The notes beneath the pieces are model-generated. The model had not been told where the DNA came from. It did not search any database and worked only from the letters and a program-made list of their open reading frames with translations. A program made the translations under genes and the position numbers. A stretch of DNA of 63,766 bases, the filler included, from Stramenopiles sp. TOSAG23-6 (lineage: Eukaryota): the NCBI GenBank assembly GCA_900128565.1. It is 13 parts of 13 records of this genome, joined end to end, with 100 filler letters (N's around TTAATTAATTAA, not from the genome) between each part and the next. Parts side by side here need not be neighbours in the genome. Positions count along the whole stretch, not along the records: positions 29,569 to 34,377 come from LT637050.1; 12 more parts are not named here. One strand, 5' to 3'. Shown here piece after piece: positions 11,184 to 60,406 of the stretch. Positions within the stretch are counted from its first letter, which is position 1. The number at the start of each line of letters is the position of its first letter.

Positions 11184-14100
11184 TTAAAATTTCATTATTT
11201 TTTCCTTCTTCATTCTACCATCTATCCCAAGAACCATACGTCGTTCTTGACTATCTGCTGATCCTGGTCTATTTCGAGAAGTTCTAAGTACAGGAAGTTC
11301 TGTTTCTTTTTCAAATTCTCCGGAGAGTAGTTTTTTTCTAAAGTCATCAACGATAGGAACATTAGCAGCCTCCAGTTCTCTTTGTAATCGCGCCAGTCGC
11401 ATTGCTTTCTCTCTTTGCATGGTCTTTTTCCAATATGCTTTTGTTTTCAAAGCTTTGCGGCGTGCATTATCACGCTGTTTTTTAAAGTTTGCTAGCGCTT
11501 TTTGCTTTGGTGTAAGTTCGTCAGTTGAAACTACGTCGGCACCAGAAACTAATCTCGGCTGCATTTTTATTAAGTCTATTTTAGCTTTTTGTAAAAGTTT
11601 TGATACACTTTTACTTTTTGCTAATTCATATGCATATCTATTTCGATTATTTTTTGTATTTAACATACGGAATAATCCTAAAATACGGAATTTTTTAAGC
11701 TTCCATGTATTTTGGAAAAATATTTCAAAATTGTTTTTGTTAGGTACAAAATTTCGTACGAAAAACAAATTGAAACTTGAAAAAAAATAAAACATACATT
11801 CGCCCTTACTGCACTCATATATTGTAGGAGCCGTCAAAGCCGTACACGTAGACAAGTGATTACGACGCGCGGCCCAGTGAAGTGCCGTATCACCATTCCC
11901 ATCTTGAATATCCATATCAGCTCCGTGATATATTAAATAATTTACAATGTCAGTACTTCCTGCTCTAGCAGCAACATGAAGTGGTGTCATTGCAGTTAAA
12001 ATATCAGTTTCTCTATTTGTATCTGCATTTTTCTTCTCAACTAAGTATTTAACAAGATTCAAGTGACCAGCCCAGCAAGCATTATGTAACAATAAATCAC
12101 CTGTATCAGACTCAGGATCATTCACTGAAAATATCCGATGTTCTTGATGCTTCTGACGTTTCGTTTCATCTTCTATAAGCTCCCCCAGTCTTTTTGTGGA
12201 GACTCCAACACGTGCACCAGTCCAAGGATTATGTACAGATGCATCTACTTGATTTTGATGTTCAATAGCTGAAATTTCTGCCATTTTTTTTTCTAATTCT
12301 TTACGGGCAGCATTCTCAACATTGCGTTTTTCAATACCTTTTCTCCACCATACATGACATAACTGAATGAATTTTCTGTGATTGCTTTCAATACGATGTT
12401 GAGATAATTTAGCTTTTGCAAAATGCCTCTGATTGAGCTCTTCAGAACGCATTTTAATACAATTTCGTTCCTCCTCTTCTCGCTCTTTTGCATTTCTAAT
12501 AAGCCTTTCAGAATGATTTGCAGCATTAATGGCTCCTTGGGTCAATTGTAAACATTCGTTAACTCTCGGATGAAAAGAAAAAAACGCCCGCTTTGCTGAT
12601 TTGATACCTTTAGAAAAGTCCAAAGGTGTTTCATCATCTCTATCATAATCGTCAGAATTTACATTAGCACAATATAACATACTAGCCTCAGCTTTTTCCA
12701 CTGACTTTTTAAAGCGATCTATTTGGCCAACTTGTTGTAAAGGTTTCGAAACCTTGTACCGAAATATATCTCGCGACATCAAGGCAGTCAAATCTGCCCA
12801 TCCTTGATATAACCTACGTACATCTGCTTCTAATGCAATGATAGGTAACTGACTGGCATCTAACATTGCTTCTTCCACTAAATTGCGATAATTTTCAGTA
12901 ACATCTGACACACGTTTTTCGAATAAGTTCAATTTGTTTTTCATTTCTTCTTTTCCACCACAATAAGCTTCGTCGGATTCAACTTCTGCTTTCAAAGATA
13001 CAACTTTAGCAAGTTTTTTCTGTGCTTTTTTCATTAGTTTCTTTGTAGCGCGGATCGCCTTCCAGACTTTGACAAACTTTTCTAATCCTGTGATACCTTC
13101 AAACTTGTCTAACGTAAATTGAACACGCTCAACACTATGAGATAACCCTTCAGTCTCTTGATTCAAAGTTTTAGAAAGTTTCTTAAGCTCTGCTTTCATT
13201 TGATCCTTTGCTTTTTTTCTTGAAGCTGCTTCTTCTCTCGCTTGTTTTTGACGCCATGCACACTGAGTCTTCAATGCAGCATCTTTTTGACGCTGAATGA
13301 CGTCACCAACATCCTCTAGAAAATACTCGAATGCAACTTTATCTTTATGTTCAGGATGTTTGTATCTACGAGCAACTAGCGTAACGTCTTTTTTATCCAA
13401 TCGAAATGAATATTTCTTTTTGACAAGAAAATAAAAACTTTGTTGGTTCAAATAATCATTATTTTCATCATCAAGTTGACGAAATGCACGAGCGAATGCA
13501 TCATAAATTCCTCTATTTTTTACTTGATCAACAATTGACCACATTATTCGGTCCAACTTTTCTTCCTCTGCCATTGAAAATGCTTGGCCAGAAGGATTTG
13601 AAAAACCAAGTGTGTCTCTCTTCTTCTTTGCTTTGGCAGCTTTTTCTGCTTCTTCTTTTTGTATTGCTTGTTGTTTCTTGATGTCAGTTTTATGCTGGTT
13701 TTCATATATTTTTCGAATATCTTGAACAAATAAATGGTAGTCAACGGCATTATGCTTTTGAGAATGGTGGTAACGACGGACAACTAACTTCATATTAGGT
13801 TCTATTATTCGTAATCGAAACTTGACTTGAAATATTGACATGAAAGATTTTGCATCTAAATAATGCCTATAGTTGATATCTGCATCTCCAAATGCCTGAA
13901 GAAATTCTTCTGTTGTACCATGGTGTTTCAATTGGGCAACTATATGCCACAGTGTTGCGTCTAAATCTTCTTCTTCTTCAAGCGTAAATTTATCACCAGA
14001 ACTATTTGAAAAACCAAAATGTTGTGACTTTTTCCGCCGCGCAGCAGCTGCTTCGTCTGCTTGTTGTTTTTGTATTCTTAGTTGTTTCAATTTCGCTGAT

Positions 14101-19816: not shown

Positions 19817-20575
19817 ATCTAGTTCACCTAACAACTCGTCCTCATCAAAACCTTCTCCCATTTGCCGACCTAGAGCTTCATTAATTTCATTTTGCATTTC
19901 CATGCCCTCTTCAAGTTCTGCCTGTAAGTCCTCTACTGCGTCAACATCCATGTATTTTGGAAAAATATTTGAAAAAAAAAACCGTTAGGTACAAAATTTC
20001 GTACGAAAAAAAAATCGAATTTGAAAAAAAATAAAACATCCATATTTGCGCTAATAGCCTGTTGAGCCCTTCTGCTTTCTTTCATCGCACCAACCACAAC
20101 CATATTTGAAGAAGCTTGTTGAAGGTTCATGACCTGGGATTCCAAATTCATAATTTGGTTGTATAGACTCGTTACCTGTTTTTCGTACATTTTTTTCTTT
20201 TTTAGATGTTGTAAAGCGCGCCGTTTATCCTTCTTTTTCATGCAAGCCTTAGCTTTAGCAACTTCACCGTCCATCTTCTTCTCCAAAAATTCAGTTCTAC
20301 ATATATAAGAAAATAACAAAAGATAAAACTATTAGATTTTAAATCCACCAATGAAATAATAAAGAAACATAAATGACACAATCAATAATACTATAAATAA
20401 AAAGTCAAAAAGTAAACCGAGAAGAATGTAGAAGATTCAAAAGAGAATGTATGACTTACCGCTTCTCTAAAGATACTTTAGACTTCTCAATATCAGAAAT
20501 AGCTTTCATTGTACCACCTGCAGTACTTACAGGTGCACGCTGTGGTGCCTGTTTTTTTCCACCCCCATTTCCCAT
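19817..20575 (-). CDS. SNF7: ESCRT-III Snf7/Vps32; exons 20575-20460, 20296-20042, 19949-19817 (3' truncated)
   Basis: KRRALQHLKKKKMYEKQ...NMDVDAVEDLQ...NEINEALG...FDEDELLGELD. Confidence 0.85.
19950..20041 (-). mobile_element. Introner-like intron GG..AT (92 nt)
   Basis: Removal restores MDVDAVEDL; 9-nt direct repeat ATGGATGTT at the junctions. Confidence 0.85.
20297..20459 (-). other. Canonical GT-AG intron (163 nt)
   Basis: CG|GTAAGT...TATGTAG|A; restores KR|TEFLEKK; no family motifs. Confidence 0.85.
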
Positions 20576-27008: not shown

Positions 27009-27749
27009 CCCCCAAAATGGATTGCCTCAGTACATCATCAAAAACGGAATCAAAAGCGGTTCAAGATTCTCATAGAAAAAAAATATCAAATTTTGGTAAA
27101 AATATATCACTAGAGTTGTTGTTACCATATGAGCAACCAATGGTTCATCACCATGATCACTCTACTACAAATGTAACTTCAGAAACTTCAATGAATTACT
27201 ACAAATCACACAACCCTAACACATTAAATACTACATCAAATACTACATCAAAAAGTCGGATTCATGAAAATGAGAGAGATGATAATATTTTTGTTCCGTC
27301 TTTTTCAGTTTCTTCTATATATCCCAAAGGTAAAAGAATGAATGTTTTATTTTTTTTCAAATTCCAATTTTTTTTTCGTACGAAATTTTGTACCTAACAT
27401 TTTGTTTTGAAATATTTTTCCAAAATACATAGATAGATCGTGGTTGTTTGAGCGACCATTAATCGTACAGTTTTTATTTATCATGGCAAATGTACAAAAT
27501 ACACAGAAATTTCAAGTTGAAATTAGTGTATTTGAAATTAAAACTCCAAGAGGAATTGAAATAATTGCGAAACACACACACACTGGGGAAATTGAAATGT
27601 GGATCGCTCTTGCTGAAAATAGTAATATGATTGATTCAATTTTTAACTTTAAAAATACGTCAAATAATAACCCCTTTTTAAACGCAATGTGGCAAAAACT
27701 CTGTAAATTATTGCGTTGGGGCACTGGTTCGAGGTTACCTATTCATTAG
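24819..27749 (+). CDS. Unknown low-complexity protein; exons 24819-26924, 27023-27339, 27431-27749
   Basis: Three ORFs joined in frame by removing family introns 26925-27022 and 27340-27430. Confidence 0.65.
27340..27430 (+). mobile_element. Introner-like intron GA..AT (91 nt)
   Basis: AT|GAATGTTTT...AAAATACAT; an in-frame GT-AG alternative (27330-27432) also exists. Confidence 0.7.
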
Positions 27750-29323: not shown

Positions 29324-29649
29324 AGGGTTTAGATCTGTCTCAACTATCAGAGCTTATCGAAATGAACTAATTATCAGCAGCTGACGACAACAACTAGAGT
29401 CTTTGACTGGGAGTGGAATTCGAGACTGTGTTTCGAGAAATTGCAAAGAAAAGAACAGCGCTGAAATANNNNNNNNNNNNNNNNNNNNNNNNNNNNNNNN
29501 NNNNNNNNNNNNTTAATTAATTAANNNNNNNNNNNNNNNNNNNNNNNNNNNNNNNNNNNNNNNNNNNNTTTTTTTTCAATTTCCAATTTATTTTTCGTAC
29601 GAAATTTTGTACCTAACGATTTTTTTTGAGATATTTTTCCAAAATACAT

Positions 29650-32600
29650 GTGCCTGATGAAAAAGAAGCAAAGGCTTCAGTTCTGCGGCGACTAGAAAAA
29701 CGATATGAACCCAAGCGTGTGAAGAAAAGGAAACAAAAACAAAAAGAAGGACGTGGTACAAAAGAAAGCGTGAAGAGGAAAAGAATGCGTCGAAAAAGAA
29801 AACATTTAAAACGACTTTTTAATTTAGCTAAACCCCGACCAACAATTGTAAAAGGCGATATTACGACGTATCCGAAAAGTCTCCGACCGCCGACTGCAAT
29901 ACTGAAAGAAAAACAAGAACAAATTCTTTCAGAAAAAGCTCGGCTGGGTAAGGTGCCGACAAAACTTCCGGCAGCTATTAAAATATGGGAACGGAACCCA
30001 GAATGGAAGTTCAAAAGATCAAGAAACGATGAAATGGGGATTTTGCGTGATAAAGATGGTAAAGAAATACCGAAAGAAATTGCTGTAGATGCGGTAGTGA
30101 TTAGTTATAATGGCCTTCGACATTTAGTAGTCTATAATGGGGCATGGTTGGGACCTACAATATGGAAACCAAATTCTCGCGGGCGATGGAAATGGGAACA
30201 TTTAGCTGATTTGCGTTGGGAATTTTCAAAAGATTCCCCAAATAAAGGCATGCCATTCACTGTACAACATGTACCTAGACTGGACTTTAAGGATCCTGTA
30301 AATCCTGAGTACCCAAGTAGCGATGACGATATTTTAATTCGTCGAGCGCGACGAAAGAGAGCAGCAATGAAGAAACGTGACATTAATAGGAAACATAAAC
30401 AATCTGAACATTTTGATTTTCCACCCCGTCAAAGTAATCAAAGTGCCGAAGATCCAGAAGATGAATATAATGATGATAGCGATATGGAAATCTCGGTGAT
30501 TGAAAAGCAAAGGATCCGACGAAAAAAACATGCAGAAGCTCGATTGGAAGTAATAAACGGTGATAGACCTGATTTCAATGAAGGAGACAAAGCAAGTTGT
30601 GGCCCATTTGCAGATGAAAAATATTTATCAGCTACGGAGAAACAAAAGAGAGAAAAACTTTGGGCGAAATATCCATTTCTTGAAACTGAATACAAAAAGG
30701 TACAGCGGGAACGCAACTTAAAGGCAAAAGATGAAGCACTGAAAGAGCTTTTATATAAAGCACTTCAACTGAAAAATTCAAAATCGACAAAAGACGTAGT
30801 GTCTAGTAAAGTCGAAGCAAAAATAGTTCTTGAAATTTTCAAATTCTTTCCACACAGACGTTCTCGAGATATCGCAAAGGCTGTTAAAACAGCAAAGCAT
30901 AAAATCCTACATTTAAAAGATAATATTTCACAGCAGCGTTTACTTGGTGTGAGAACATTTTTGGAAACTTTGCAGGAAAGTATGCCTTCTCGCGTACTTG
31001 AAAATAATACATCTATAGGTGACTCTAGCTTAGATCCTGATTGGCTCAAATGGAAAAAGAAACGGTTAAAGGCAGCAAAAAAAAGAATTTCAAAGCAAGG
31101 GGGTCCAACAGATCTTAGTCAGGAAAGTTTTCAGATGCGAATGAAAGCGAAAGATGAAGAAAAACTAAAACAAAAAACATTGGATGAAGATGGGTTAAAT
31201 AATACAGGAGCCTTTAAATGGGAAAAGGGGGGGGGTGATGGAGGAAGTAGTGATGATGATGATGATAAAAAACAAAAGAATCCGAAAGCACCCAAAACAC
31301 TTACAGCAGCTAAGGATGATGCAAATGACGATGATTTAGATTTAATAGAAAAACGTTCAGCTGCAAGATTATTGAAAGCATTACCGCCAAAAAAACGAAG
31401 AGCATTACAAAACTTTGTGGCTACTATTTACACCGAAACTAAAGACTTGGTCAGATATGTATGTTTTATTTTTTTTCAATTTCGAATTTATTTTTTTATA
31501 GGAAATTTTGTACCTAACGATTTTTTTTTGAAATATTTTTCCAAAATACATGATCAAGCAATTGCTATACGACGGCATACAGTGCGTATATACCATGAAG
31601 CCGTTCAATTGGGCAAAATGCAAGAAATGACATTTCCCCCTAACTTATCTACTGTCGAAAGAAAAATAGTTCATAAAATGGCGGACATTCTAGGCATGAC
31701 CAGTGATTCCAAGGGTAAAGGTAATGATAGAACAGTCACAGTGTGTTGTGAACCTAATGAAAAGGAAATTTCATCTGCAGTTGAAGCTGCAAGAACTTCC
31801 GTTGAGGCAAAAAAGACGACAGTAGCAATGTCACAACTTCCAAAGTCAATTTTTGAGACACTGAGTCAGTTCATAAAGAAGTACCACGCGAAGCCACGAT
31901 ACACTGCACAGGCATACTCCATATGTGGGAAATTGATCAAATTTCGTGAAAATGTTGTGAGAATCGGAAAAGCAGGTTTTGAAAGCACATGTCAACTGCC
32001 TTGTTCATATGATACAGAAAGGAGGTATATGGTACACAAAATGGCTAAAATGCTTGGGATGTCAAGTGATACTATACGCGACAGTTCTGGAGCACGTCGC
32101 GTAGAAATTCACTTTACCCTTCGAGAGTCTGAATTGATTGCATCTAGGGAAATGTTGGCAAGTATTGAGAAGAAAAGGAAAGAAAAGATCCAGAAGCGAT
32201 TTGACGAACTTTCAACTCCATTACAACACAAGCAACTGCCACGTATTCATCGAAGAAATCCAAGGAAAATCCGAGAAAAAATACGACAGGCAAACATTGC
32301 TAGGTGCCAGGCAATGCGTTGGGAACAGGCACGCAAAGTTGATAATACTTGGGGTGGGCCAAGATTGTCAGGTCCTGAGCGATGGCGCGACGAGGTAGCT
32401 GGTTTCGCGAATAATGTATTCAATTACAAGTTGGATGAACTAAAAAAGGAAGTTGAAAAGTCAACACGATTAGAAAAGACAGGTATGGATAAACTTCAAA
32501 GTATATGTGAAACTAAACAGCAAAAGTGGGGGAAACAGCGCCGAGTATTGAAAGCGAATAAGGTATACAAGGGAGATCCTTCAAATAAGCAAAGTGTATT

Positions 32601-33837
32601 TGGAAAAGCAGCGAAAAAGAATAGAAAAAGAAGGGCGATGAATAATAAAAAAGTAAAACAATTCCGCGAACGTGCTCTTAGACTTAAGCAAGAACAAGCG
32701 ATAATAGATCGTGAAGTAGAACTACAAGGTAAAGCTGCGTTTGCTTATTTTGAAGCAAAGTCTAATGCACCTCTGCAAACGACGAAACCGATGAAACAAC
32801 AAAATTTTATGCAATTTACAGAATGTAATACTAATCATAATAAACCAGAAAAGAAAATGTACATGGGGATACCCGAAGAGCGTATCATTGCTCGCTCTAA
32901 AGCAAAATTGAAAGCAACGCGGCCTATTGAAAAACAACATTATATGTGTACGACACAATCTCAGAAGAAGCGGTTGGAAACTGAAAAAATGTCTTATATG
33001 GGCAGAATAGTTAAGGGAAAACGCAAGGCTTCTTCGGAAGAAAATACAAAAGCTTCTAAAACACTCAAGGATATGCGAGCGCAGAAGACTTTGAAGAATT
33101 CATCATTAGTGAAAAAGAATCAAACACAGCAAAACGAGAAAATAAAAAAAACTGCAGTGGAGAAAGAGTCGAAAAAGACTGAGGCGGAGAAAGACACAAA
33201 GAAAACAGAAAGAATTGAGGGCGGAAAAGTATCAAACGAAGCAAATGCATATGATGATGATACAGATGAATTTGAAGATTCTTCTGATGTGTTAGTTCAG
33301 GTAAACAAAAAGACTACGGATCAAGAGTTACGCCCTATGCACATTATTCCAGAATTTCAAATGCATGTTCGTGTTACTTCTTCGCGACTTGCAACACCAA
33401 TCAGAGCTTCAAGTCGTCGTGTTGTATCATCTCATGGTCAATCAACACCAACTCGTGCTGTCAGTAGTCATTTAAAATCTAGTGTATCACCGCGTCCGTT
33501 TTCAAATAGAAATTCACTCATCATCAAAGAGGAAGATACAAAGGAAGAAGATGTAAATGCTGAATCTAATAATGAAGATATCACTACAACAAATATAGAG
33601 ACCCCAGTGAAAAATATTGGATACGCAATTGCATTATTTGACCATGCTGCAGAGGAGGACACCGAACTAAATTTCCCTGAGGGTGCTAGGATCATTGTTC
33701 TAGAAAAACGTGGCGAGTGGTATATTGGTAAATACAATGGAATGACTGGAGAATTTCCAGGTAATTATACAAATCTCTTCCTAAATAATGATGCTTCATT
33801 TGTATCCAGAATTACTAAAGAAATCGACAAATTGTAA
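29650..33837 (+). CDS. Large basic protein with two R3H domains and C-terminal SH3 (5' truncated; intron 31459-31551)
   Basis: FPPNLSTVERKIVHKMA, ERRYMVHKMA, AIALFDHAA...ELNF...EWYIG...GEFPGNY. Confidence 0.8.
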   Translation: MPDEKEAKASVLRRLEKRYEPKRVKKRKQKQKEGRGTKESVKRKRMRRKRKHLKRLFNLAKPRPTIVKGDITTYPKSLRPPTAILKEKQEQILSEKARLGKVPTKLPAAIKIWERNPEWKFKRSRNDEMGILRDKDGKEIPKEIAVDAVVISYNGLRHLVVYNGAWLGPTIWKPNSRGRWKWEHLADLRWEFSKDSPNKGMPFTVQHVPRLDFKDPVNPEYPSSDDDILIRRARRKRAAMKKRDINRKHKQSEHFDFPPRQSNQSAEDPEDEYNDDSDMEISVIEKQRIRRKKHAEARLEVINGDRPDFNEGDKASCGPFADEKYLSATEKQKREKLWAKYPFLETEYKKVQRERNLKAKDEALKELLYKALQLKNSKSTKDVVSSKVEAKIVLEIFKFFPHRRSRDIAKAVKTAKHKILHLKDNISQQRLLGVRTFLETLQESMPSRVLENNTSIGDSSLDPDWLKWKKKRLKAAKKRISKQGGPTDLSQESFQMRMKAKDEEKLKQKTLDEDGLNNTGAFKWEKGGGDGGSSDDDDDKKQKNPKAPKTLTAAKDDANDDDLDLIEKRSAARLLKALPPKKRRALQNFVATIYTETKDLVRYVCFIFFQFRIYFFIGNFVPNDFFLKYFSKIHDQAIAIRRHTVRIYHEAVQLGKMQEMTFPPNLSTVERKIVHKMADILGMTSDSKGKGNDRTVTVCCEPNEKEISSAVEAARTSVEAKKTTVAMSQLPKSIFETLSQFIKKYHAKPRYTAQAYSICGKLIKFRENVVRIGKAGFESTCQLPCSYDTERRYMVHKMAKMLGMSSDTIRDSSGARRVEIHFTLRESELIASREMLASIEKKRKEKIQKRFDELSTPLQHKQLPRIHRRNPRKIREKIRQANIARCQAMRWEQARKVDNTWGGPRLSGPERWRDEVAGFANNVFNYKLDELKKEVEKSTRLEKTGMDKLQSICETKQQKWGKQRRVLKANKVYKGDPSNKQSVFGKAAKKNRKRRAMNNKKVKQFRERALRLKQEQAIIDREVELQGKAAFAYFEAKSNAPLQTTKPMKQQNFMQFTECNTNHNKPEKKMYMGIPEERIIARSKAKLKATRPIEKQHYMCTTQSQKKRLETEKMSYMGRIVKGKRKASSEENTKASKTLKDMRAQKTLKNSSLVKKNQTQQNEKIKKTAVEKESKKTEAEKDTKKTERIEGGKVSNEANAYDDDTDEFEDSSDVLVQVNKKTTDQELRPMHIIPEFQMHVRVTSSRLATPIRASSRRVVSSHGQSTPTRAVSSHLKSSVSPRPFSNRNSLIIKEEDTKEEDVNAESNNEDITTTNIETPVKNIGYAIALFDHAAEEDTELNFPEGARIIVLEKRGEWYIGKYNGMTGEFPGNYTNLFLNNDASFVSRITKEIDKL
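31459..31551 (+). mobile_element. Introner-like intron GT..AT (93 nt)
   Basis: Near-consensus copy; first two downstream AGs are out of frame. Confidence 0.85.
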
Positions 33838-34077: not shown

Positions 34078-34176
34078 ATGTGTTGTAAAAAAAAAAAAAT
34101 CTAAAAAAAATTGTTAGGTACAAAATTTCGTACGAAAACTAAAAAAAAAAAATTAAAATTCATAATGAACACGAAC
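34078..34176 (-). mobile_element. Introner-like copy in 3' UTR
   Basis: GTTCGTGTTC...CGTACGAAATTTTGTACCTAAC...CAACACAT, 30 nt after stop. Confidence 0.7.
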
Positions 34177-34206
34177 GCTACACACGAAAAAGTACACCCC
34201 TGGAGG

Positions 34207-34308
34207 TTAGTGATCATCATTTTTCCAGTGATTTCCACAATCTAGACAGGAAACAAAAGTTGTCATTGGCTCATCAGCACCACGAGTTTGAGCTTGGGTA
34301 TATGAACA
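34207..34308 (-). CDS. TFIIS-type C-terminal zinc ribbon, last coding exon
   Basis: [29 protein letters not shown]; preceding intron ends AATACAC. Confidence 0.85.
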
Positions 34309-34554
34309 GTGTATTTTGGAAAAATATTTCAAAAAAAAAACCTAAAATTTGTTAGGTACAAAATTTCGTACGAAAAANNNNNNNNNNNNNNNNNNNNNNN
34401 NNNNNNNNNNNNNNNNNNNNNTTAATTAATTAANNNNNNNNNNNNNNNNNNNNNNNNNNNNNNNNNNNNNNNNNNNNAACTGTTTTTCCAAAATATTTTT
34501 TTATAGGAAATTTTGTACGTAAAATTTTTTTTTTTTTTTTCTCCAAAACCCAAA

Positions 34555-34596: not shown

Positions 34597-35904
34597 TATC
34601 AAATAAAGAAAAACCCTACAACATCTACAACATCTACAACATCTACAACATCTACAACATCTTCAAATGCTTTACTAAACGAACGAGAATGGATCAAAAC
34701 TGCAATCTCTTCAAACGATGCAGTCGGTACAAAAGTAGGTACAAACATTAATTTCATTGAGAATGCAGCACAAAATACAAAGCATACAAACATTAATTTC
34801 ATTGAGAATGCAGCACAAAATAGTGATTATAAAGATGCGTGGATTTCGTGTTCACAAATACGTAAATTGGTTTTAGTTTGGGACAGTTTGCATGTTCGAA
34901 CTCAATGGAGATATAATTTTGAATATGTGTTAAACATATTACCAAAAGATGATTTTACATTTAATGACTTTTTCTCCACAATTCGACTTCTCGCGTCACG
35001 AAATCAAAGTAATTTTGTCCTTCAGAAGGATTTCGTGCAGTTTTTATTTGACACTCATTTGAATAAAAATCATTCTGGTGTTGCAGACGCGGAAACATTT
35101 AAATCCTGTTGGTCAATCATTCAATTGCAAATCAATAGGTACTATGTATGTTTTATTTTTTTTTTTTTTTTAGTAAATATTTTTTTTTTTTTTTTTACGG
35201 AAATTTTTTTTTCGTAGTAAATTTTGTACCTAAACCTAAAAGATTTTTTTTTTCAAATATTTTTCCAAGATACATGAAGAGGCTACTATATCAAAAAACA
35301 AATTTATTGGTACAACATCATCATCATCAATGCTGAAAGATCAATCGACACATATGTTTAATTTCTTTTTTTTTTTTTTTTTTCGGTTAAAAAAAAAAAA
35401 TCGATTTTTTTTTTTGGTTTTTTTTCGTAAAAAAATTTTGTACCTAACAAATTTTCAAAATTTTTTTGAAATATTTTTCCAACATACACTAAAACAAATG
35501 ACTTTGAACGAACGAGAACGAAAATATTTAAAATTTTTAGTGATTGTTTTTTTTCTTTTTTTTGCTTCTTTAATTTTTTCTTGTTTAATAAATACCAGGA
35601 CAGATGCATTCTCCATTTTAAACTCGGATAATAATCTAAATATTGTAAAATTGGATGTACGTTTTCAAAATTAATTTTTTTTTTTTTAATTTTTTTTTTT
35701 TTCATACGAAATTTTGTACCTAACAAAAAAAAAAAAAAATATTTTTCCACAATGAATGACATTTGGACTTGGATAGAGAATGATTTGTACACTGAAATCA
35801 CAGGTGGAGATGATTCAAACATTAATTACACTAACAATGAGGGATTATTTAAACGACTGCAAGAAATGAATGGCTCAGCAGCACAATTTTTTCATCAGGA
35901 ATAT
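34597..35904 (+). CDS. Multi-exon membrane protein fragment, possibly polycystin-like (introns 35146-35275, 35352-35489, 35657-35757)
   Basis: Exons join in frame; TM segment followed by DIWTWIENDLY. Confidence 0.45.
35352..35489 (+). mobile_element. Introner-like intron AT..AC
   Basis: AC|ATATGTTT...CATACAC; in-frame join. Confidence 0.6.
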
Positions 35905-35983: not shown

Positions 35984-36017
<34 letters not shown>

Positions 36018-36031
36018 GTTCCACAATATAT

Positions 36032-36598
36032 GCTGAAGATCCTCTAAGAGGATTTTTACCATCAATTGGTCGTCTTTTACAATATAATGAACCAAATGCA
36101 GATGATTTGGATATATCACCGGGTGAAATCGTTCGCGTTGATAGTGGTGTTACTGTAGGAAGTAATATTTCAATGTTTTATGACCCAATGATTAGTAAGT
36201 TAGTTACATATTCACCAGAAGGGAGAGAAGCCGCTACGGATTTAATGGTAAAAGCGTTAGATTCATACGTAATTCAAGGTTTGAATCATAACGGTCATTT
36301 CTGTCGAGCTCTTTGTGAACATCCTCGATTTCGTGCAGGTAACTTATCAACTGAATTTATAAGCGAAGAATACACTGATGGATTTGAACCAGATGGGTTT
36401 TCATTGCCTAGAGACGATCAAAATATTGTATATGCTATCGCTGCACTAATTCATTCCCGTGATGAAATAAATCGTATTCCTGATTTAGATAAGAATAGAC
36501 ATCAAAAGAATCATCATATTGATTTATCACTTGGTATTGGTAGTAATCTTTCGGAAACTCATGTCAAAACAAAGTGTATTCTTCCTCCTGAACTAGAT
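36032..36598 (+). CDS. PCCA: Biotin carboxylase C-terminal exon (propionyl-CoA carboxylase alpha-like)
   Basis: AEDPLRGFLPSIGRL...VRVDSGV...ISMFYDPMISKLVT. Confidence 0.8.
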
Positions 36599-36693
36599 GT
36601 ATGTTTTATTTTTTTTTTAACAAAAAAATCGAATTTTTTTTTTATAAAAATTTTGTACCTAACGTTTTTTTCAAATATTTTTCCAAAATACAT

Positions 36694-39239
36694 GCGGCTA
36701 AATAATACCGGCAGAGTATTTTTACCAAGTGAGTTGCTCGATTTAGTTGAGCTTGTTGTAACAGCAGAGAGAGCTAATAAGTGGTTCAAAGAATCCGGAA
36801 AAAATGCCGAGGCTGCAAATTCAAGTGAAAACTCATATGTATCATCTCCAGAAAATAAATTCGCTTTAGCTTTGCCCGTTTCAGAGCAAACGCCGCTCAA
36901 ATTAGTACTGCATGTATTAGAAATTCTTGATTGTATACAACATGGCAAGGCTCTTTCGGAATCTCTTATGAATACTATATGGTGGAACTCGTCTGGACAA
37001 TTACGAATTGTTGAGACTTTTCATCCTCAATGTATGCGCATCATGGGTACAAGTAGTGGAGGATCCAATCTACCAACTCTAATTATGGGTAGAAAGGGTT
37101 ATCAAACGTCCATGGATATAGATGATAAAGTCCAGAAAGTTTCATTTTCTGGCGCAAACACTTTAACAATTAAATTTGATAAGCGTTGTGAACTTCTTCC
37201 TGGTTCATTTTTTGTTATTGAATTTGACACATCCAAAAAAGGCGAACTTTCAAAACACATAAAATTAGAATTTCGAGGAGGCAAAACTAATGAGTTTTTT
37301 ACTCCTACAACAAAGTACCAAAATACAATTGATTTGACATCTTGGGATATTCCTGCATCTGAATTTTCGTTTTATTTTGGTTATTTTGACAAAGAAGAAT
37401 ATAAAAAAGATTCAGTGGAAGAGACTAAAGAATATAAAAAAGATTCAGTGGAAGAGACTAAAGAATATAAAAAAGATGGAACAACTGTAGCGAATGAATT
37501 GTCCAAGAAAAGCAAATTTTGTATCAGCGAAAGCTCCAAAAAATCGAAAAAATCGGTAGATTATTGGGGCGTTGCATTTGTTGTGATACCTGACACAAGA
37601 ATTCCTTACCATGATATCGCCACGCATATTTACAAAGCTACCCCTGGTGATTCTCATGGTACTGAATTGGAAAATGCTCGGTGTAAGGTTAAGGAATTAG
37701 AAATGAAGAAGATATCCACCGTTGTGAAATTAGCTAGAGAAAGTCATCAAATATCAAAAGCAGTTGAAAGTTTTAGTACGTGGACTCCAAAATTAGATGC
37801 ATTATTGGTTGATTGGATTAATTCATGGATTTCAAAGCACGGTAGTAAGTCCTGGATGGAGTTACTACCAGATTTTGTTAGATTAACAAAGAATGAATGT
37901 GGTTATTACTATCAGCTATTATCAACGGTGCCGTTAGAGTCGCTATATATTCGCGTTGCTCTCTTCCGACAATTTAACCTTTATTTGTCCGAAATACTTC
38001 CACTAATAAATCTTGGTAGTATAGATCTCGCTAGTGTCGGTGCTCGTTTGCGTGCTTCAAGCCACTGTATATTCCGCGACCTTAAATTGCCAATACTCAA
38101 ACGAGCATTAGAAGTCACTCGCGGACCTGAAAGAAACAGCGAACCGATCTATATGTACGTTTTCATTATGGATTTCAGATTTTTTTTTTTTTTTTTTTTT
38201 GGTATGAAATTTAGTACCTAACAAATTTTAGTTTTTTTTTTGAAATATTGTTTCACAATACAGAACTCTCGATAATTTTGAAGTTATATTGTTTAGAGAT
38301 AAAGGAATAATTGATGCATTGACTAGTAAGAATATTTTCACTCAGGCGTTTGACCAATTGCATAAATTACCACCAAAAATTCTCCGGTCTAAATTTACTC
38401 ATGGTAGNNNNNNNNNNNNNNNNNNNNNNNNNNNNNNNNNNNNNNNNNNNNNNNNNNNNNNNNNNNNNNNNNNNNNNNNNNNNNNNNNNNNNNNNNNNNN
38501 NNNNNNNNNNNNNNNNNNNNNNNNNNNNNNNNNNNNNNNNNNNNNNNNNNNNNNNNNNNNNNNNNNNTGTTTTATTTTTTTTTTTTTTCCGGTAAAAAAA
38601 AAATTGAATTTATTTTTTTCAAAAAATTTTGTACCTAACAAATTAAAATTTTTTTTTTTGAAATATTTTTACAAAATACATCGGTCGCCTCGTGCTATTG
38701 AATATTTTGAATTTCTTGGTAAATTAATGGGGCTATCACTGCGAGCTACACTTTGTCTTCCATTTTCATTCCCTTCTCTTGTATGGAAGCAACTTGTTGG
38801 AGCCGAAGTGGATTCATCTGATCTTCATGCAATGGATTATCTGACAATGCAACAAATCGATATCATTCGTGGTTGTGATGTTGACGAAGGAATCACAGAT
38901 GAAGAATCATTTAAGAATGAATATGGAAATTTAAAATGGTCTTATATTTCAGCTGACGGAGAAGAACGACGATTTGAACGAATAGAAGATATAAAAAAAT
39001 ATAGTGATCAATGGAATGCTGAAACCGATAAAAGTCAAAATAAATCAAAGTATAATTTCACAGAAATATCATCCAAATCACCAGTTACTTTCAAGGAAAA
39101 AGATATTTATTGCGATGCTCTAATATATGCACGTTTACATGAGTTTGACACACAGATAGCAGCAATATCTCGGGGCATGCAAACCGTTGTACCCAAAAGA
39201 TCTACTCGATTATTTACTTGGCAGGAGTTAGAAATGTTA
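36694..39239 (+). CDS. HECT E3 ubiquitin ligase fragment (several exons, internal gap)
   Basis: FTQAFDQLH, YFEFLGKLMGLSLR, PSLVWKQLVG, RLHEFDTQIAAI, LFTWQELEML. Confidence 0.85.
38155..38263 (+). mobile_element. Introner-like intron GT..AG (109 nt)
   Basis: Ends CACAATACAG at the position where other copies have CAT; gives YITLDNF. Confidence 0.8.
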
Positions 39240-39987: not shown

Positions 39988-40400
39988 ATTGTATCTAAAG
40001 AAAAAATTGACTCCAAATTTGTCATTCGTTCCAATTCTTTATGACTTAATTTCTTGAAATATTGTGTTTGAAGCAGTTTTGTCGGTGTAGTATTATCTTG
40101 TACCATTTTTTCATACTTGAACTCATTATTTTCATCTATATCGTTTGGTATTTTTGGTATTTTTGATACAACATCGTTAGGGTTAGGGTTTTCTGTAGGA
40201 CAATTATCTACTTGATCTAATGCTTTAATAGCATGTATTGTGAAAAATATTTTTTTTTTTTGATTTTTTTTGTTAGGTACAAAATTTCGTACGAAAAAAA
40301 ATTAAATTCAAAATTGAAAAAAAATAAAACGTATATCTTCCCTAGACACTTTAGCATTTGCCATTACGGCTTCGATTTCTTTGTTACTATGCTTAGTTTC
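39988..40400 (-). CDS. Exons with UBA/NAC-alpha-like motif (40400-40335, 40232-39988)
   Basis: KEIEAVMANAKVSRED|AIKALD across AT..AT intron 40233-40334. Confidence 0.6.
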
Positions 40401-40511
40401 ATGCATTTTGGAAAAATATTTCAAAAAAAAAAAAATCTAAATTTTTTTGTTTGGTACAAAATTTCATACGAAACCAAAAAAAAAAAAAAATGATAAAAAT
40501 TGAAAACGTAC

Positions 40512-40774: not shown

Positions 40775-40812
<38 letters not shown>

Positions 40813-42557: not shown

Positions 42558-42592
<35 letters not shown>

Positions 42593-49194: not shown

Positions 49195-50452
49195 TAGTGA
49201 TTTAGATCATAGTGATGATATTTTTTCAAATACAAATAGTGATTTAGATAATAATGATGATATTATTTCAAATACAAATAGTGATTTAGATCATAATGAT
49301 GATATTATTTCAAATAAGAGTTGTTATGAAGAGGAAATTGCAGATCAAACTTGTCACAAAAAACATAAAAAACAATCTGAAGTCAATGAAATTGTTCCTG
49401 AACAAATGTCAACGTCACCAAAACCTCCCCACACACCATGTATGTTTTATTTTTTTTCAAATTCTAATTTTTTGTTTCGTACGAAATTTGATACCTAACA
49501 AAAAACTTTTTTTTTTTTGAAATTCTAATTTTTTTTCGTACGAAATTTTGTACCTAACAAAAAACTTTTTTTTTTTTTAAATATTTTTCCGAAATACATG
49601 CCCTGCTTATGCTGAAATGCAAATACCTGCTCTCCAGTATGCAATGGCAAATTATGGAATGAGAAAAGCTTCAAAGAAAGTAATGGTACAAAAACTAACT
49701 GAGTTTTGGCACTTTTTGAGAAAGGATAAACTCATTCAAAAGACTAAAGAAAAAAAAAAAAGAAAGAAAAAGAAGAAGACTAATTTGATTTGTCGACAGA
49801 ATTGTAATGTAGTTGCTCTTCCTGTACCTGATGAAAATGGTCATATAGATGCGGTACTTGCACCTGTACGTTTTCAGTATGAATTTCAAATTTTTTTTTC
49901 GTACGAAATTTCGTACCTAACAAATTTCGAATTTAATTTTTTTTACAATACATGTACTTGATGACAATTTGCTTCCCAATAGTGCCAATTGTATGGTACC
50001 AAATTTTGTACCTAAAGCGAACGAAATGTTCTTTGTGCAACATTCTCCTTCGGACAACCCTAACCCTAGTCTTTCTCTTGGAATTCAATCTGTATCGAAT
50101 GGTAAAAAATATAGTAAAAATCACGAAACATTGATAAATCTTATTCGAAACAATAACAGTCCAAAGATGGCTACATTACATGTATGTTTTATTTTTTTTC
50201 AATTTCAAATTTATTTATTTTTTTTTATAAAAATTTTGTACCTAACGATTTTTTTTTTTTTTTTTGAAATATTTTTCCAAAATACATGAAAAAATGATTC
50301 TTCTGGACGCTGTAAATGTCAATGATGTGTATGATGCTTTTCAGAGAGCGGCAAAACGAAGCAATAAAGTAGAATGTGGAGATATCACTAAAAATCTTAT
50401 TGTAGAATTTCTTGAGGCGCAAAACATTACCATGGAAAACAATGTTAAATAA
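49195..50452 (+). CDS. SLX4: SLX4-like nuclease scaffold, C-terminal exons (introns 49440-49599, 49866-49953, 50182-50287)
   Basis: TP|CPAYAEMQIPALQYAMANYGMR (SAP-like) and LH|EKMILL...LIVEFLEAQNIT (SLX1-binding-like). Confidence 0.7.
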
Positions 50453-50682: not shown

Positions 50683-53600
50683 ATGTCATACAAGTTCGAA
50701 AGACTTTCAGAAAAAACGCATCATTTCTTTCGTGGTAGTGCTGTTCTATCAGCTCTAAATGGATATGTTGACTTCCCGGGACAGGAATCAGACTCAGAAA
50801 TGTCTCGGGTTGTTAGCTCCACAACAGAAACTATACTGGTAGCTATGGCGGCAGCTCCTGGTCATATCGTTTGCTGTTTTAAGTTGAAAGACATAGGTAC
50901 TTTATTGGTATCTCTTGATGCTGTCCTTCCACATGAATTGATGGATGATGACTTATTGAAAGGTCTTTTGGCGTTAGTTTTAAATACTACAAAAACGTCG
51001 CCTCTTTTATCTTTTCCATCATCTGAAATTCGACCCAAGATTTTATTATCTCTCCATCGGAAGGAAATCGTTACTATAAAGTATATTCCAGGTAATATCC
51101 TTCGATTAATAGCAGTGTATAGAAATGGGGAAATGTACGTTTGGGAATGGGACGGAAATCATTCGAAATGGGTGTATTTAAATTGCGTTATTTTAGGCAA
51201 TATCGATAGTGTAATTGAAGTAATAGAATGTGTTTTCTGTGAGTGTAATAATACAATTGTTTGGCAAGAGAAACATTTAAATATGACATGTCGCACATGT
51301 ATGCGTACAATTCACTTTAGCTGCGAATCAATGGTAATGAATGATTCAAAAAGTGATTCAAAAAGAAATGTCAAACCAAAACTATGCCAAAACAATATTT
51401 TGAAAAGAACTTTGATTTACATTGGTCAACTATCTGTGATTTCAACAACAAAAGTAGACCAAATTTTTGTTTCAAAAATAGGCATTTGGACATTTGATTC
51501 ATCAGCTATACATAAAACAAACTCAACAAAGTCTTCGACAGCATTTTCTGATTCAATTGAGTCAACCTCATCAACTCAAATAAAATTATATTTATGGAAA
51601 TTTTCATCACAGGTGCAGGTACCTTTTGTGTATAACTCACCAAATGATCAAAATAATCAATTGCGTCGTATTGCTGGTACAGTTCATACTACATCTGGAA
51701 TTATTTTTATTCTGTGTTGTGCAACAGGCGTATGTTTTCAAAATTGAATTTTTATCTACATTTTTTTTATACGAAATTCTGTACCTAACGGTTTTTTTTT
51801 TTTAGTAAAAAAAAAAAAAAAAAAATTAAAAATTTCACAATACATATTGTATACATAAGAAATTCCAATACTAGCCGTAACTCTACAAGAACCCTAACCC
51901 TAAAACCATTATGTACATTATATCCATATGATATAAATAGTGAAAATATAAATGATTCTATTTCAATACAAGCAAAAAGAACATTTTTATATGTTCTCAC
52001 AAAGCGTAAAGTTATTGTACATGTATGTTTTATTTTTTTGAATTTCGAATTTATTTTTTTTTTTTTTTGGTAAAAAAATTAAAATTTTGTACCTAACGAT
52101 TTTTTTTACTAAAAACACAAAATTAAAAATTTCACATTTTTTTTGTACTACAAAAGGATTTTCTTTTAGTATGAAAATTCCGTACATAACAATTTTTTTT
52201 TACTGAAAACAAATTCACAGCATATGATTTAATTAGTGGGTTACAAATGGCAGAGATTGTGATAAACGCAAACTACTCAGGTACAAAATTTGGTACAAAT
52301 TATGATAGTAAGAATATTTTTGACAGTGACATTTTATATAAAAAAAATTTTTGGACTGAAGCAACACCTGGGGTAGGGTTAGGGTTGTGGGATTATTCGG
52401 GGATGTGGTCCTTGAAGCATCCTAGTGTAGCAAATGAAGCCGCTATGTATGTTTTCATCTCTTTTGTTTTTGTTTTTACCTACGAATATTGTATACAAAA
52501 AAAAATTTCATGTAAATTTTTTTTTTTTACTATGAAAATTGTATACCTAAAACAAATTTCAAATATTTGAAATATTTTTTTATTTGATTTTTTTTTTTAT
52601 AAAAATTTTGTACCTAACAAATTTTGACATTTTTTTTTTTTTGACAACACAGACTCACAGCATCAGTAGAACAATTTGGTTTAGACTCGATATTTCATTC
52701 AAAGACTTTATTATCACGGAATTGGATGTATGTTTCATTTTTTTTCAAATTCGATTTTTTTTTCGTACGAAATTTTGTACCTAACGATTTGTTTTTGAAA
52801 TATTTTTCCAAAATACATGTCCGGAGAAAATTCAAAATTTATTTCTTCTAAAATGATTCCGTGCAATTTTTTTACAAAATATTTCTCAAGTAATGACACG
52901 TGTACGTTTTTCATTTTAACCTTTACATTTCATTTTTTTTTTTTTTGGTTTTAGTACGAAATTTACAATGAAAAAAAAAAAAATTATACAAAAATATATA
53001 TATATTTCACAATATATTTGTTCAGCGAAATTTTATTACACGAATGTTTAAACAATTTCTAAAATATCGCAATTTTTTTGATGATAATAGTGTTGAATGT
53101 TTACTAACATCTATGAATATTATATTACGTCATTTGCAATCTCCTGCAATGTTGCTTGCACTTCTACCAACGAGCCACGTACGTTTTAACCATTAATTTC
53201 AAAAAACAATTTCATACGAAATTTTGTACCTAAGAAAAAAACATTTTTTTTAAAGTAGTTATGTTTTCATCATTTATTTCAAATGTGTAAAGTAACATAA
53301 AAACAATCAAATTTGGTATATTTTGTACAATATATATTCATAAAAGTTTTGTATCAGAAATTTTAGATTCTTTCACATCTGATATCAAGGAGAGAGTTGA
53401 CACTCAGCAAATTCGAAATTCGTTAGGTACAAATTTTGGTACAAAAAAAAAAAAAAAAAAAATGAAGGAATTGTTTTTACTCAAATCATTGACTCCACTT
53501 GCATTACAATTAAAACCTCGACTACACGAAATGCTCAATATTTCAAAAAAATTATCGATTCATCGAAAATCTCATATAGTCGTAAAGAAGAGAGTTGATT

Positions 53601-60368: not shown

Positions 60369-60406
<38 letters not shown>

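What the first reader, a model, noticed from the sequence alone, without database searches (positions are those of the whole stretch)
31457..31551. Terminal inverted repeats and AT target site: three equivalent registers
Seen: the ends ATGTATGTTTT and AAAATACAT are inverted repeats, with an inner TTTCAA/TTGAAA pair. In 21 of 30 scorable copies the upstream exon ends in AT, so the same mRNA results from GT..AT, TG..CA (inserted at A^T) or AT..AC. Copies with non-AT upstream flanks (6891, 26925, 49866, 51730, 52902, 53179) still end in AT, and 2 copies put AG at that position, which favours GT..AN. Inference: a GTAT..ATAC MITE whose 2-bp AT target duplication was co-opted as the acceptor, or a TG..CA element inserted without duplication.
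Basis: partly seen in the sequence, partly recalled or inferred. Interest (0 to 1): 0.85.

Follow-up and report, generated by a model that had tools for sequence, protein, structure and literature searches.

The report
Repeated introns ending in AT
This is one copy of a short repeated intron that riddles the genes of an uncultured marine protist and ends in AT instead of the near-universal AG; published gene models translate straight through at least one such copy.

Summary
Window 31459-31551 is a 93-nt copy of a very abundant element with a GTATGT start, a TACCTAAC branch site about 34 nt from its end, a T-rich tract and an AATACAT end. A distant homologue lacks exactly the 31 residues it would encode.

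- Among 27 complete unique copies, 22 start GT, 24 end AT (2 AG, 1 AC), 20 have AT just upstream and 17 have G just downstream.
- Cutting at GT..AT length restores the reading frame in 18 of 23 copies automatically. Four of the five misses resolve by hand, two of them only with a shifted acceptor. Two multi-intron gene models become fully open.
- A protein 100% identical apart from a 9-residue modelled gap carries a MAST-3 (marine stramenopile) single-cell assembly label.

- The inverted ends are short and no rarer than other inverted repeats in this AT-rich DNA.
- No copy-specific target duplication can be shown.
- I found no transposase or empty site.

I obtained no spliced read, so the exact cut register is inferred, not shown. 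Closest known cases are introner elements and the AT-ending introns of Fritillaria tunicates. I found no report for MAST-3.

The parts
31457..31458 (+). Last two bases (AT) of the upstream exon. They are either a target-duplication copy or part of the exon-side donor context.
   Evidence: AT lies upstream in 20 of 27 complete copies.
31459..31551 (+). The 93-nt intron copy named in the finding. It lies in frame inside the R3H/SH3 ORF 29617-33837.
   Evidence: Homologue P0241 has a gap of exactly the 31 residues this stretch encodes.
31459..31464 (+). Donor motif GTATGT.
   Evidence: Columns 3 and 5-10 of alignment A1 (the G and ATGTTT of ATGTATGTTT) are invariant. 22 of 27 copies start GT.
31478..31489 (+). 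Internal palindrome AATTTCGAATTT. Most other copies also carry TTTCGTACGAAA.
   Evidence: pair I4.
31511..31518 (+). Branch-site-like TACCTAAC. The presumed branch A is at 31517, 34 nt from the intron end.
   Evidence: GTACCTAA is invariant in A1. The distance is 31-45 nt in 21 of the 25 copies with a recognisable motif.
31519..31540 (+). T-rich tract that includes the inner TTGAAA arm.
31541..31551 (+). Acceptor motif CCAAAATACAT, ending in AT.
   Evidence: 24 of 27 copies end AT.
49440..49599 (+). Copy of 160 nt with an internal duplication. First of three AT-ending introns in gene 49196-50455.
49866..49953 (+). Copy of the GTACGT subfamily, with flank CT and an AT end.
50182..50287 (+). Copy of 106 nt.
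51730..51845 (+). Copy with flank GC and an AT end. It is the most informative copy for fixing the cut register once RNA data exist.
52023..52225 (+). Copy whose AG at 52219-52220 breaks the frame. The AT at 52224-52225 keeps it.
52447..52652 (+). Copy that ends ACAG (canonical AG at the family register).
52728..52818 (+). Copy of 91 nt.
52902..53017 (+). GTACGT copy with flank GT and an ATATAT end.
53179..53335 (+). GTACGT copy with flank AC and an ATATAT end.
19950..20041 (-). Copy in a Snf7/CHMP4-like gene. It starts GGATGT at the family register.
   Evidence: The upstream exon ends at Snf7 profile position 101 and the downstream exon starts at 102.
11705..11797 (-). Copy of 93 nt in the ankyrin-repeat ORF.
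35352..35489 (+). Copy with flank AC that starts ATATGT and ends ACAC (AT..AC at the family register).
38155..38263 (+). GTACGT copy that ends ACAG.
40233..40334 (-). Copy that starts ATACGT and ends ACAT, with consistent frames. The duplicate contig carries the same letters.
34309..34378 (-). Copy cut by the contig end. It ends ACAC, and the next exon aligns from its first residue to positions 11-39 of the TFIIS zinc-ribbon profile.

Best explanation
The interval is one copy of a highly repeated, introner-like spliceosomal intron family in a MAST-3 marine stramenopile. Each copy carries:
- a yeast-like donor (GTATGT or GTACGT);
- a TACCTAAC branch site 31-45 nt from its end;
- a T-rich tract;
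- a conserved acceptor motif AATACAT, in which AT stands where other eukaryotes have AG.

**Shown.** The family exists. Its copies sit in the sense orientation in unrelated genes. Removing a segment of exactly GT..AT length restores reading frames, and in two cases it restores the residue-for-residue match to homologues.

**Inferred.**
- Removal is by the major spliceosome, at RNA level.
- The chemical cuts lie before G of GTATGT and after T of ACAT.
- The family spread by insertion at (or preference for) AT|G sites, so that the exon ends in the same AT as the intron.

Whether that AT is a 2-bp target duplication of a DNA transposon or a protosplice-type preference is open.
For: **Family and signals.**

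**Counts on 27 complete unique copies.**
- 22 start GT.
- 24 end AT.
- 20 have AT upstream.
- 17 have G downstream (p = 4e-7 against a G frequency of 0.185).

**Frames.**
- 18 of 23 copies restore the best upstream and downstream ORFs (one third expected by chance).
- Gene 49196-50455 becomes one ORF of about 300 residues running to a stop once its three AT introns are removed.
- Gene 50668-53700 becomes 714 residues open once six introns are removed, five ending AT and one ending AG.

**Homology.**
- P0241 aligns over 626 columns with a single 31-residue gap exactly at the intron.
- In the Snf7-like gene the exons abut at profile positions 101 and 102.
- The TFIIS zinc-ribbon exon starts right after an element end.

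**Register.**
- The donor motif is fixed at the family register.
- AG variants have G in place of T.
- Non-AT flanks are incompatible with AT..AC.
- AG-based alternatives fail the frame in 2 of the 3 introns of gene 49196-50455 (my reading).

**Abundance.**
- At least 10 of 24 contig ends inside the window fall within copies (my reading).
- Summed contig depth at element positions in a seawater metagenome is 1e3 to 8e4, against 0-5 in most unique-exon bins (up to about 150 in bins that hold partial copies). The tool warns that this is not a copy number.

**Orientation.** 29 copies are sense and 8 antisense by an automatic rule. Of the antisense calls, two (34102-34138 and 34310-34378) proved on reading to be sense copies of a minus-strand gene, and others pair a copy with an ORF on the neighbouring contig.
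Against: - I obtained no spliced read or contig. In the one run set laid, the listed joints connect different repeat copies, and one RNA-library contig (record 25 of X5, 49303-49457) runs unspliced across a donor.
- An acceptor with U at the last position is disfavoured in the model spliceosomes. This rests on established knowledge, not on a test here.
- 5 of 27 copies lack GT at the family register yet sit in frame-consistent genes.
- 9 of 27 copies have an AG between the branch site and the AT end, and that AG would have to be skipped.
- In two copies (ends 5117 and 35275) an AG 6 nt upstream of the AT end would also keep the frame.
- Copy 36599-36693 gives a stop when removed.
- Copy 3681-3579 fits only with an acceptor shifted within an (AT)n run.
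- The assembly comes from amplified single cells, so chimeric contigs are possible.
Confidence: 0.6

Rival explanations
1. The splicing is the same, but the family spreads as a miniature DNA transposon (GTAT...ATAC) that duplicates a 2-bp AT target. The right-hand duplicate serves as the acceptor.
For: - AT lies upstream in 20 of 27 copies, and in 15 of 17 copies of the more uniform GTATGT-type subfamily by my hand tally of the 32 scored 5' ends.
- The mRNA is restored with no residue gained or lost.
- One copy has both flank AC and end AC.
- In the metagenome, 30 and 32 contigs begin to match exactly 2 nt upstream of two copies, that is, they include the AT (table 7).
- Known introners do co-opt one splice site from the duplication (review PMC11282704, passages read; PMC9860276, passages).
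Against: - Within-copy matching does not exceed that of shuffled pairs.
- 6 of 7 complete copies with a non-AT flank still end AT.
- The inverted ends are 4 nt inside the element proper, and such repeats are common here.
- The GTACGT subfamily breaks even that pairing.
- The downstream G enrichment is left unexplained.
- There is no transposase domain in any long ORF of the window.
- I saw no empty site, and the two near-identical contigs show no presence/absence difference.
Confidence: 0.35
2. The splicing is the same, but the family spreads without a DNA transposase. Candidates are reverse splicing of the excised intron into AT|G sites of other transcripts, followed by reverse transcription and recombination, or another form of direct insertion.
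For: - Consensus on both sides of the insertion point: AT upstream in 20 of 27 copies and G downstream in 17 of 27.
- Only sense copies were seen, all in transcribed regions, including one after a stop codon in a 3' untranslated region.
- There is no copy-specific duplication, and excision is exact.
- Introner families without transposon hallmarks are on record (PMC9860276, legend of Fig. 2A).
Against: - The mechanism has never been shown to operate at this scale; this rests on established knowledge.
- It does not explain why the intron's last two bases equal the exon's last two.
- Selection alone would also give a sense-only distribution in a gene-dense genome.
Confidence: 0.25
3. The true register is AT..AC. 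The flanking AT would be the first two bases of the intron and ATAC its end, as in AT-AC introns.
For: - It gives the same mRNA wherever the flank is AT.
- A first base A paired with a last base C is a known workable combination (established knowledge).
- Copies with GG, GA or AT at the family register (20041, 27340, 40334) would keep AT..AC in this register.
Against: - Seven complete copies have other flanks (TT, CT, GC, GT, GA and AC twice).
- The bases that would be the terminal AC vary (AT, GC, GA), whereas the A before the last base never varies.
- The donor would read ATGTAT rather than the invariant GTATGT/GTACGT.
- The branch site lies 31-45 nt from the end. This does not match my recalled description of U12-type introns.
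Confidence: 0.08
4. A TG..CA element inserted between A and T without any duplication.
For: - TG..CA ends are common among transposons and retroelements (established knowledge).
- The mRNA is the same wherever the flank ends in T. The base before the donor equals the last intron base in 22 of 27 copies.
Against: - Transposases that use TG..CA ends make target duplications (established knowledge).
- Four complete copies with flanks ending in C or A still end in T (51730, 53179, 43382), and AG-ending copies have flank AT.
- There is no splice-like motif in that register.
Confidence: 0.04
5. The elements are not removed at all, or they are artefacts. They could be translated low-complexity inserts, pseudogene debris, or assembly or amplification chimeras.
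For: - Some copies are in frame and open, such as 31459. The public model P0252 translates through one.
- Copy 36599 sits where the propionyl-CoA carboxylase homology stops.
Against: - Most copies have lengths that are not multiples of three or carry in-frame stops. Even so, the flanking ORFs line up after removal.
- The homologue lacks the segment exactly.
- The same element appears in independent seawater runs.
Confidence: 0.03

Closest known systems
Introner elements of Micromonas pusilla, Aureococcus anophagefferens and many other, mostly aquatic, eukaryotes (Huff 2016, recalled; Gozashti 2022, PMC9860276, passages read; review PMC11282704, passages read)
   Same: - Hundreds to thousands of near-identical short introns lie at unrelated positions.
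- They are sense-oriented.
- The element supplies one splice site and the same dinucleotide stands at the exon end.
- Splicing restores the original message.
   Different: - Here the acceptor is AT, not AG.
- No copy-specific target duplication and no convincing terminal inverted repeat can be shown.
- The host lineage (MAST-3) appears in none of the texts I could search.
Non-canonical introns of the larvacean tunicates Fritillaria borealis and F. pellucida (Soo et al., bioRxiv 2025 sections 3 and 5 read; NAR 2026, PMC13326754, passages read; Henriet 2019 not held)
   Same: - AT is the most frequent acceptor (34% and 44% of introns) and is preceded by a uridine-rich tract.
- The introns derive from introner transposons.
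- They are removed by the U2-type spliceosome.
   Different: - In F. borealis the common classes start with AG (AG/AC, AG/AT) and termini are very diverse.
- Here the donor is a canonical GTATGT and a strong branch-site motif is kept.
- The host is a unicellular stramenopile, not an animal.
Introner elements with non-canonical ends in Amoebophrya (Farhat 2021, PMC7789003, passages read)
   Same: A marine protist with repeated introns, direct repeats that overlap the exon/intron borders so the cut register is ambiguous, and inverted ends.
   Different: Amoebophrya shows no dominant terminal dinucleotides, has 8-20 nt inverted repeats that form hairpins, and lacks a detectable U1. Here the ends are uniform (GT..AT) and the folds are not better than shuffles.
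AT-AC introns (U12-type and rare U2-type)
   Same: The acceptor is not AG, and one copy here (35352-35489) is AT..AC at the family register.
   Different: The donor and branch-site motifs and the spacing do not fit. The majority class is GT..AT, which is not a recognised class. My search for 'GT-AT intron' phrases found only 7 papers, all with single passing mentions (listing only).

Membership tests
Introner elements (transposon-derived spliceosomal introns) | Many sequence-similar introns at unrelated gene positions in one genome | tested here: met
   56 profile hits at E<0.01 and 27 complete unique copies in different genes.
Introner elements (transposon-derived spliceosomal introns) | Copies are removed so that the host reading frame is restored | tested here: met
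   18 of 23 copies automatically, plus 4 by hand. Two gene models become open. There is an exact gap in a homologue and abutting profile positions. No RNA evidence was obtained.
Introner elements (transposon-derived spliceosomal introns) | Target-site duplication flanking the element | tested here: inconclusive
   A constant AT stands at both sites (20 of 27 upstream, 24 of 27 at the end), but within-copy matching does not exceed that of shuffled pairs.
Introner elements (transposon-derived spliceosomal introns) | Terminal inverted repeats | tested here: inconclusive
   The terminal pair is 9 nt at 89% when the exon AT is included. It is one of 12 comparable pairs in 121 bases and is not kept in the GTACGT subfamily.
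Introner elements (transposon-derived spliceosomal introns) | A cognate autonomous element with the same ends | not testable with these tools
   No whole genome is held. No transposase domain appears in the window's long ORFs.
U12-type (minor) introns | Donor of the ATATCC type, with the branch site close to the acceptor (motif and spacing recalled, not from a call) | tested here: not met
   The donor is GTATGT/GTACGT and the branch A lies 31-45 nt from the end.
Structure-guided non-conventional introns (euglenid or Amoebophrya type) | Stable pairing of the intron ends, and no conserved GT or branch-site signals | tested here: not met
   Seven folds give z from -1.9 to +1.3 against shuffles. 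The donor and branch motifs are conserved.
Fritillaria-type non-canonical introns | AT acceptor after a uridine-rich tract | tested here: met
   The donor class (AG in F. borealis) is not met, and the lineage differs.

The most novel reading that the evidence does not exclude
In this free-living marine stramenopile the major spliceosome would routinely use AU as the 3' splice site. It would do so with an otherwise textbook GUAUGU donor and UACCUAAC branch site, on a single introner family present about once per kilobase. Most introns of the genome would then be GT-AT. This would be a natural system in which the last intron base is U rather than G. One copy even shows the paired change A...C at the first and last intron positions.
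Probability: 0.45. Interest if true: 0.85.

Novelty: new variant of a known kind. Interest (0 to 1): 0.68.

Why it matters
- **Splicing mechanism.** The AG acceptor is almost universal, and genomes that break the rule wholesale are few (larvacean tunicates, Amoebophrya, euglenids). A stramenopile with canonical donors and branch sites but AT acceptors would isolate the acceptor-recognition step. It would let one ask which spliceosome parts changed (U2AF, second-step factors, snRNAs).
- **Annotation of marine protists.** One public gene model of this assembly translates through a copy. If that is general, protein sets and intron statistics for such uncultured marine protists, and surveys that depend on annotated GT-AG introns, are biased.
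- **Intron gain.** The family adds a case to the debate on how introns are gained in bursts in marine organisms.

Tried and rejected
- **RNA evidence.** One run search found only seawater metagenomes and metatranscriptomes with small shares.
  - I then laid X3, X4, X5 and X10 on the N-free contig 49195-53993. Exon cover was sparse (depth 0-5) and the 15 listed joints connect repeat copies. 318 joints were not shown, so this gives no verdict on splicing.
- **More copies from public metagenome contigs.**
  - A two-ended pattern found nothing.
  - A 19-nt acceptor motif returned 113 loci from gut, soil and other samples. None matched the element profile at E<1e-3, so I treat them as chance matches.
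- **Whole genome.** None is held.
- **Rfam.** No match in the window, so no snRNA was available to inspect.
- **Protein searches.**
  - The carboxylase fragment gave no organism.
  - The Snf7 ORF gave no hits.
  - The carrier gave the lineage.
- **Earlier hypotheses dropped.**
  - Foraminiferan: a guess from contig statistics, tested by the literature search, which gave no support.
  - Larvacean tunicate: suggested by animal-like top hits among solved structures and a FAIM1 domain.
  - Both were dropped.
- **Also rejected.** Ciliate-type DNA elimination with TA borders (the register breaks the frame) and an AG acceptor further downstream (fails the frame in 2 of 3 introns tested).
- **Earlier scan notes.** Nothing relevant.
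- **Not seen.** Supplements of the introner surveys could list MAST genomes. I could not see them. Henriet 2019 is not held.
Full report
**What the window is.** The 63.8-kb window is not one molecule. It is 13 contigs of about 4.83 kb, joined by spacers of N44, a 12-base stop-codon linker and N44.
- The DNA is AT-rich, with GC 0.24-0.40.
- The contigs at 39387-44191 and 58981-63766 are 99.4% identical. I counted them once.
- No whole genome is held.
- The ORF at 20699-21850 is 100% identical, apart from a 9-residue modelled gap, to a protein whose source label marks a MAST-3 single-cell assembly. The next hits are oomycetes, Cafeteria and Incisomonas.
- The host is therefore an uncultured marine stramenopile of the MAST-3 group.
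- A run search agrees with a marine origin. Besides two small DNA runs that hold 0.92-0.93 of the sampled words, only seawater and plankton metagenomes and metatranscriptomes hold parts of the stretch.

**The observation.** At 31457-31551 the sequence is AT|GTATGTTTTATTTTTTTTCAATTTCGAATTT...GTACCTAACGATTTTTTTTTGAAATATTTTTCCAAAATACAT|G. It lies in frame in a 1406-codon ORF with R3H and SH3 domains.
- The same element recurs throughout the window. The 5' octamer occurs 20 times against 4.3 expected, and the 3' octamer 25 times against 8.7.
- A profile built from five copies gives 56 hits at E<0.01.
- An alignment of ten copies shows three near-invariant blocks: the start ATG.ATGTTTTATTTTTTTT, the core AAATTTTGTACCTAA, and the end AAATATTTTTCCAAAATACAT.
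- A second, more diverged subfamily starts GTACGTTTTCATCAT and ends CACAATA(C/T)AT.
- At least 10 of the 24 internal contig ends fall inside copies (my reading). This is expected if a high-copy repeat breaks the assembly.

**These are introns.**
- For 23 copies I asked whether the longest open frames on the two sides are joined by removing exactly the GT..AT (or AG) segment. 18 pass, where one third would pass by chance.
- Of the five misses:
  - 52728 passes once the short neighbouring exon is read in its proper frame.
  - 52023 passes if its acceptor is the AT at 52225 rather than the AG at 52220.
  - 3847 passes in the frame that carries a protein-kinase motif.
  - 3681 passes only if the acceptor is moved within an (AT)n run.
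  - 36599 fails. Removal gives a stop, and homology to propionyl-CoA carboxylase ends before it. That contig may be chimeric or the gene dead.
- Removing three AT-ending copies turns 49196-50455 into one ORF of about 300 residues ending at a stop.
- Removing six copies (five ending AT, one ending AG) turns 50668-53700 into 714 open codons.
- A 1743-residue homologue found in the representative library aligns to the R3H gene over 626 columns. It has a single gap of exactly the 31 residues encoded by 31459-31551, and the residues on both sides align.
- In the Snf7/CHMP4-like gene, the exon before copy 20041-19950 ends at Pfam profile position 101 and the exon after it starts at 102. That second exon also aligns from its first residue to a solved CHMP4B fragment.
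- An exon that starts right after another copy's end aligns from its first residue to positions 11-39 of the TFIIS zinc-ribbon profile.
- So the elements are excised precisely, without gain or loss of codons. I have no direct RNA evidence.

**Signals.** Counts are on 27 complete unique copies. I left out the duplicate contig, copies cut by contig ends or N runs, and degenerate copies whose ends I could not place, such as 26925, 42691, 39640 and 34150.

| Feature | Count |
|---|---|
| First two bases | GT 22, AT 3, GG 1, GA 1 |
| Last two bases | AT 24, AG 2, AC 1 |
| Two bases upstream | AT 20, AC 2, and TT, CT, GC, GT, GA once each (p = 8e-15 against 0.103) |
| Next base downstream | G 17, A 7, T 3 (p = 4e-7 against 0.185) |

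- A CTAAC-type motif lies 31-45 nt from the end in most copies.
- In 9 of 27 copies an AG lies between that motif and the AT end, so there is no strict AG-free zone.
- In two copies (ends 5117 and 35275) an AG 6 nt upstream would also keep the frame.
- The base before the last is always A.

**Register.** I favour GT..A(T/G) for four reasons:
- The donor hexamer (GTATGT or GTACGT, with G at +5 and T at +6 in all 27 copies) sits there.
- The copies with a canonical end have G exactly where the others have T (38263, 52652).
- Seven complete copies have non-AT flanks.
- The bases that would be the AC of an AT..AC intron vary, while the final A-T hardly does.

Points against a simple picture:
- Five copies lack GT at this register yet lie in frame-consistent genes.
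- For two of them (20041 GG, 27340 GA), a cut shifted four bases to the right would again be GT..AT (my reading).
- One copy (35352-35489) has flank AC, first base A and last base C.
- The other two copies with first base A end in T.

**Transposon hallmarks.**
- The inverted ends are real but weak. The terminal pair is 9 nt at 89% only if the exon's AT is included.
- It is one of 12 inverted pairs of 6 nt or more in 121 bases, and the same 3' arm pairs as well with an internal stretch.
- Seven copies folded as RNA do pair the ends in the minimum-energy structure. Their energies are not better than shuffles, with z from -1.9 to +1.3.
- The inner pair flips between G and C on one side without the other side following.
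- I compared each base around the donor with the base at the same distance from the acceptor, within copies and between randomly re-paired copies. This shows no excess matching: at -2, 22 against 22.0; at -1, 22 against 20.6, with 706 of 5000 shuffles at least as high.
- The direct repeat is therefore always the same AT. A duplication of a fixed AT target cannot be separated from a consensus that stands at both sites.
- No long ORF of the window has a transposase domain.
- The two near-identical contigs differ by no copy.
- By the automatic rule 29 copies are sense, 8 antisense and 11 unassigned. On reading, two of the antisense calls (34102-34138 and 34310-34378) are sense copies of a minus-strand gene, and others pair a copy with an ORF on the neighbouring contig, so I saw no full-length antisense copy.

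**Public reads.**
- On contig 49195-53993, summed contig depth at element positions reaches 1e3 to 8e4 in a seawater metagenome and 1e2 to 1e4 in two metatranscriptome runs. Depth is 0-5 over most unique-exon bins, up to about 150 in bins that hold partial copies. The tool warns that such sums mix organisms and are not copy numbers.
- In the metagenome, 30 and 32 contigs begin to match two nucleotides upstream of two copies (table 7).
- No alternative letter reaching the reporting threshold is listed at the final T of copy 52728-52818 (table 3).
- The listed joints connect different copies. None is a clean exon-exon joint, and 318 joints were not shown. This leaves splicing unshown.

**Comparison with what is known.**
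- The framework is that of introner elements. These are repeated, insertion-derived introns in which the element brings one splice site and the duplicated target the other, so that splicing restores the message (PMC11282704 and PMC9860276, passages read).
- AT acceptors as a major class are on record for the larvacean tunicates Fritillaria pellucida (44%) and F. borealis (34%). There they follow a uridine-rich tract and derive from introner transposons, but the common donors in F. borealis are AG (bioRxiv 2025 sections 3 and 5, and passages of PMC13326754).
- Amoebophrya has repeated introns with ambiguous borders but no dominant termini, and it has long hairpins (PMC7789003, passages).
- For MAST-3 I found nothing:
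  - The paper on single-cell genomes of these stramenopiles mentions introns twice, in its methods only (PMC5778133, find mode).
  - Three further MAST papers say nothing on splice signals.
  - No paper in the library holds 'introner' together with MAST-3, MAST-4, Nanomonadea, Incisomonas or Solenicola (listing).
  - The two introner surveys do not mention MAST or stramenopiles in their main text.
  - A phrase search for GT-AT introns gave 7 papers with single passing mentions (listing).
- One public gene model of this very assembly translates through an in-frame copy. Another model removes 27 nt from the carrier gene that homologues keep (the homologue sequence is printed).

**Verdict.**
- The element is best read as a spliceosomal introner family with GT donors and AT acceptors in a marine stramenopile.
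- The cut register and the RNA-level removal are inferred from frames, homology and motif conservation, not from reads.

Noticed in passing
window 4841-4940 and every ~4.93 kb after it: The window is a chain of 13 contigs of about 4.83 kb, joined by N44, TTAATTAATTAA and N44 spacers. Features must not be read across these joins.
   Followed up: yes
window 39387-44191 and 58981-63766: Two contigs are 99.4% identical. Their differences cluster at 43202-43385. They may be alleles, a recent duplication or redundant assembly.
   Followed up: partly
window 24656-24685; 42800-42900; 43755-43790: Telomere-like CCCTAA/TTAGGG repeats stand at one contig start and inside another contig, next to element fragments.
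   Followed up: no
window 20699-21850 (P0121); P0252 (not in the window): Public gene models of the same assembly differ from the ORFs. One drops 9 residues of the mitochondrial carrier. Another translates through an in-frame copy of the element.
   Followed up: partly
contig 49195-53993, joint 52819 to 50180: In the seawater metagenome, 18 contigs (and 1 RNA-library contig) run from an element's end plus G straight into AT plus an element's start. Two copies are thus separated by only three bases. No such junction occurs in the window. The meaning is unknown.
   Followed up: partly
window 36014-36598: A propionyl-CoA carboxylase alpha fragment (Biotin_carb_C only) has no carboxylase sequence on either side of it in the contig, and it is bounded by element copies. 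The contig may be chimeric or the gene a remnant.
   Followed up: partly
window 5108-5117 and 35266-35275: Two copies read CAAGATACAT at the end instead of CAAAATACAT. This creates an AG 6 nt upstream of the AT end that would also keep the frame, so it may be a shift towards a canonical acceptor.
   Followed up: no
window 19950-20041 (-) and 27340-27430 (+): Both copies have a mutated second base (GG, GA). In both, a cut shifted four bases to the right would again start GT and end AT.
   Followed up: no
element interior, e.g. 31478-31489 and 52763-52774: Copies carry perfect 12-nt palindromes (AAATTCGAATTT and TTTCGTACGAAA) of unknown role between the donor and the branch site.
   Followed up: no
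window 34183-34308 (-): A minus-strand gene ends here with a TFIIS-type zinc ribbon (RNA polymerase subunit or TFIIS-like). One element copy lies after its stop codon, in the presumed 3' untranslated region (34078-34150).
   Followed up: partly
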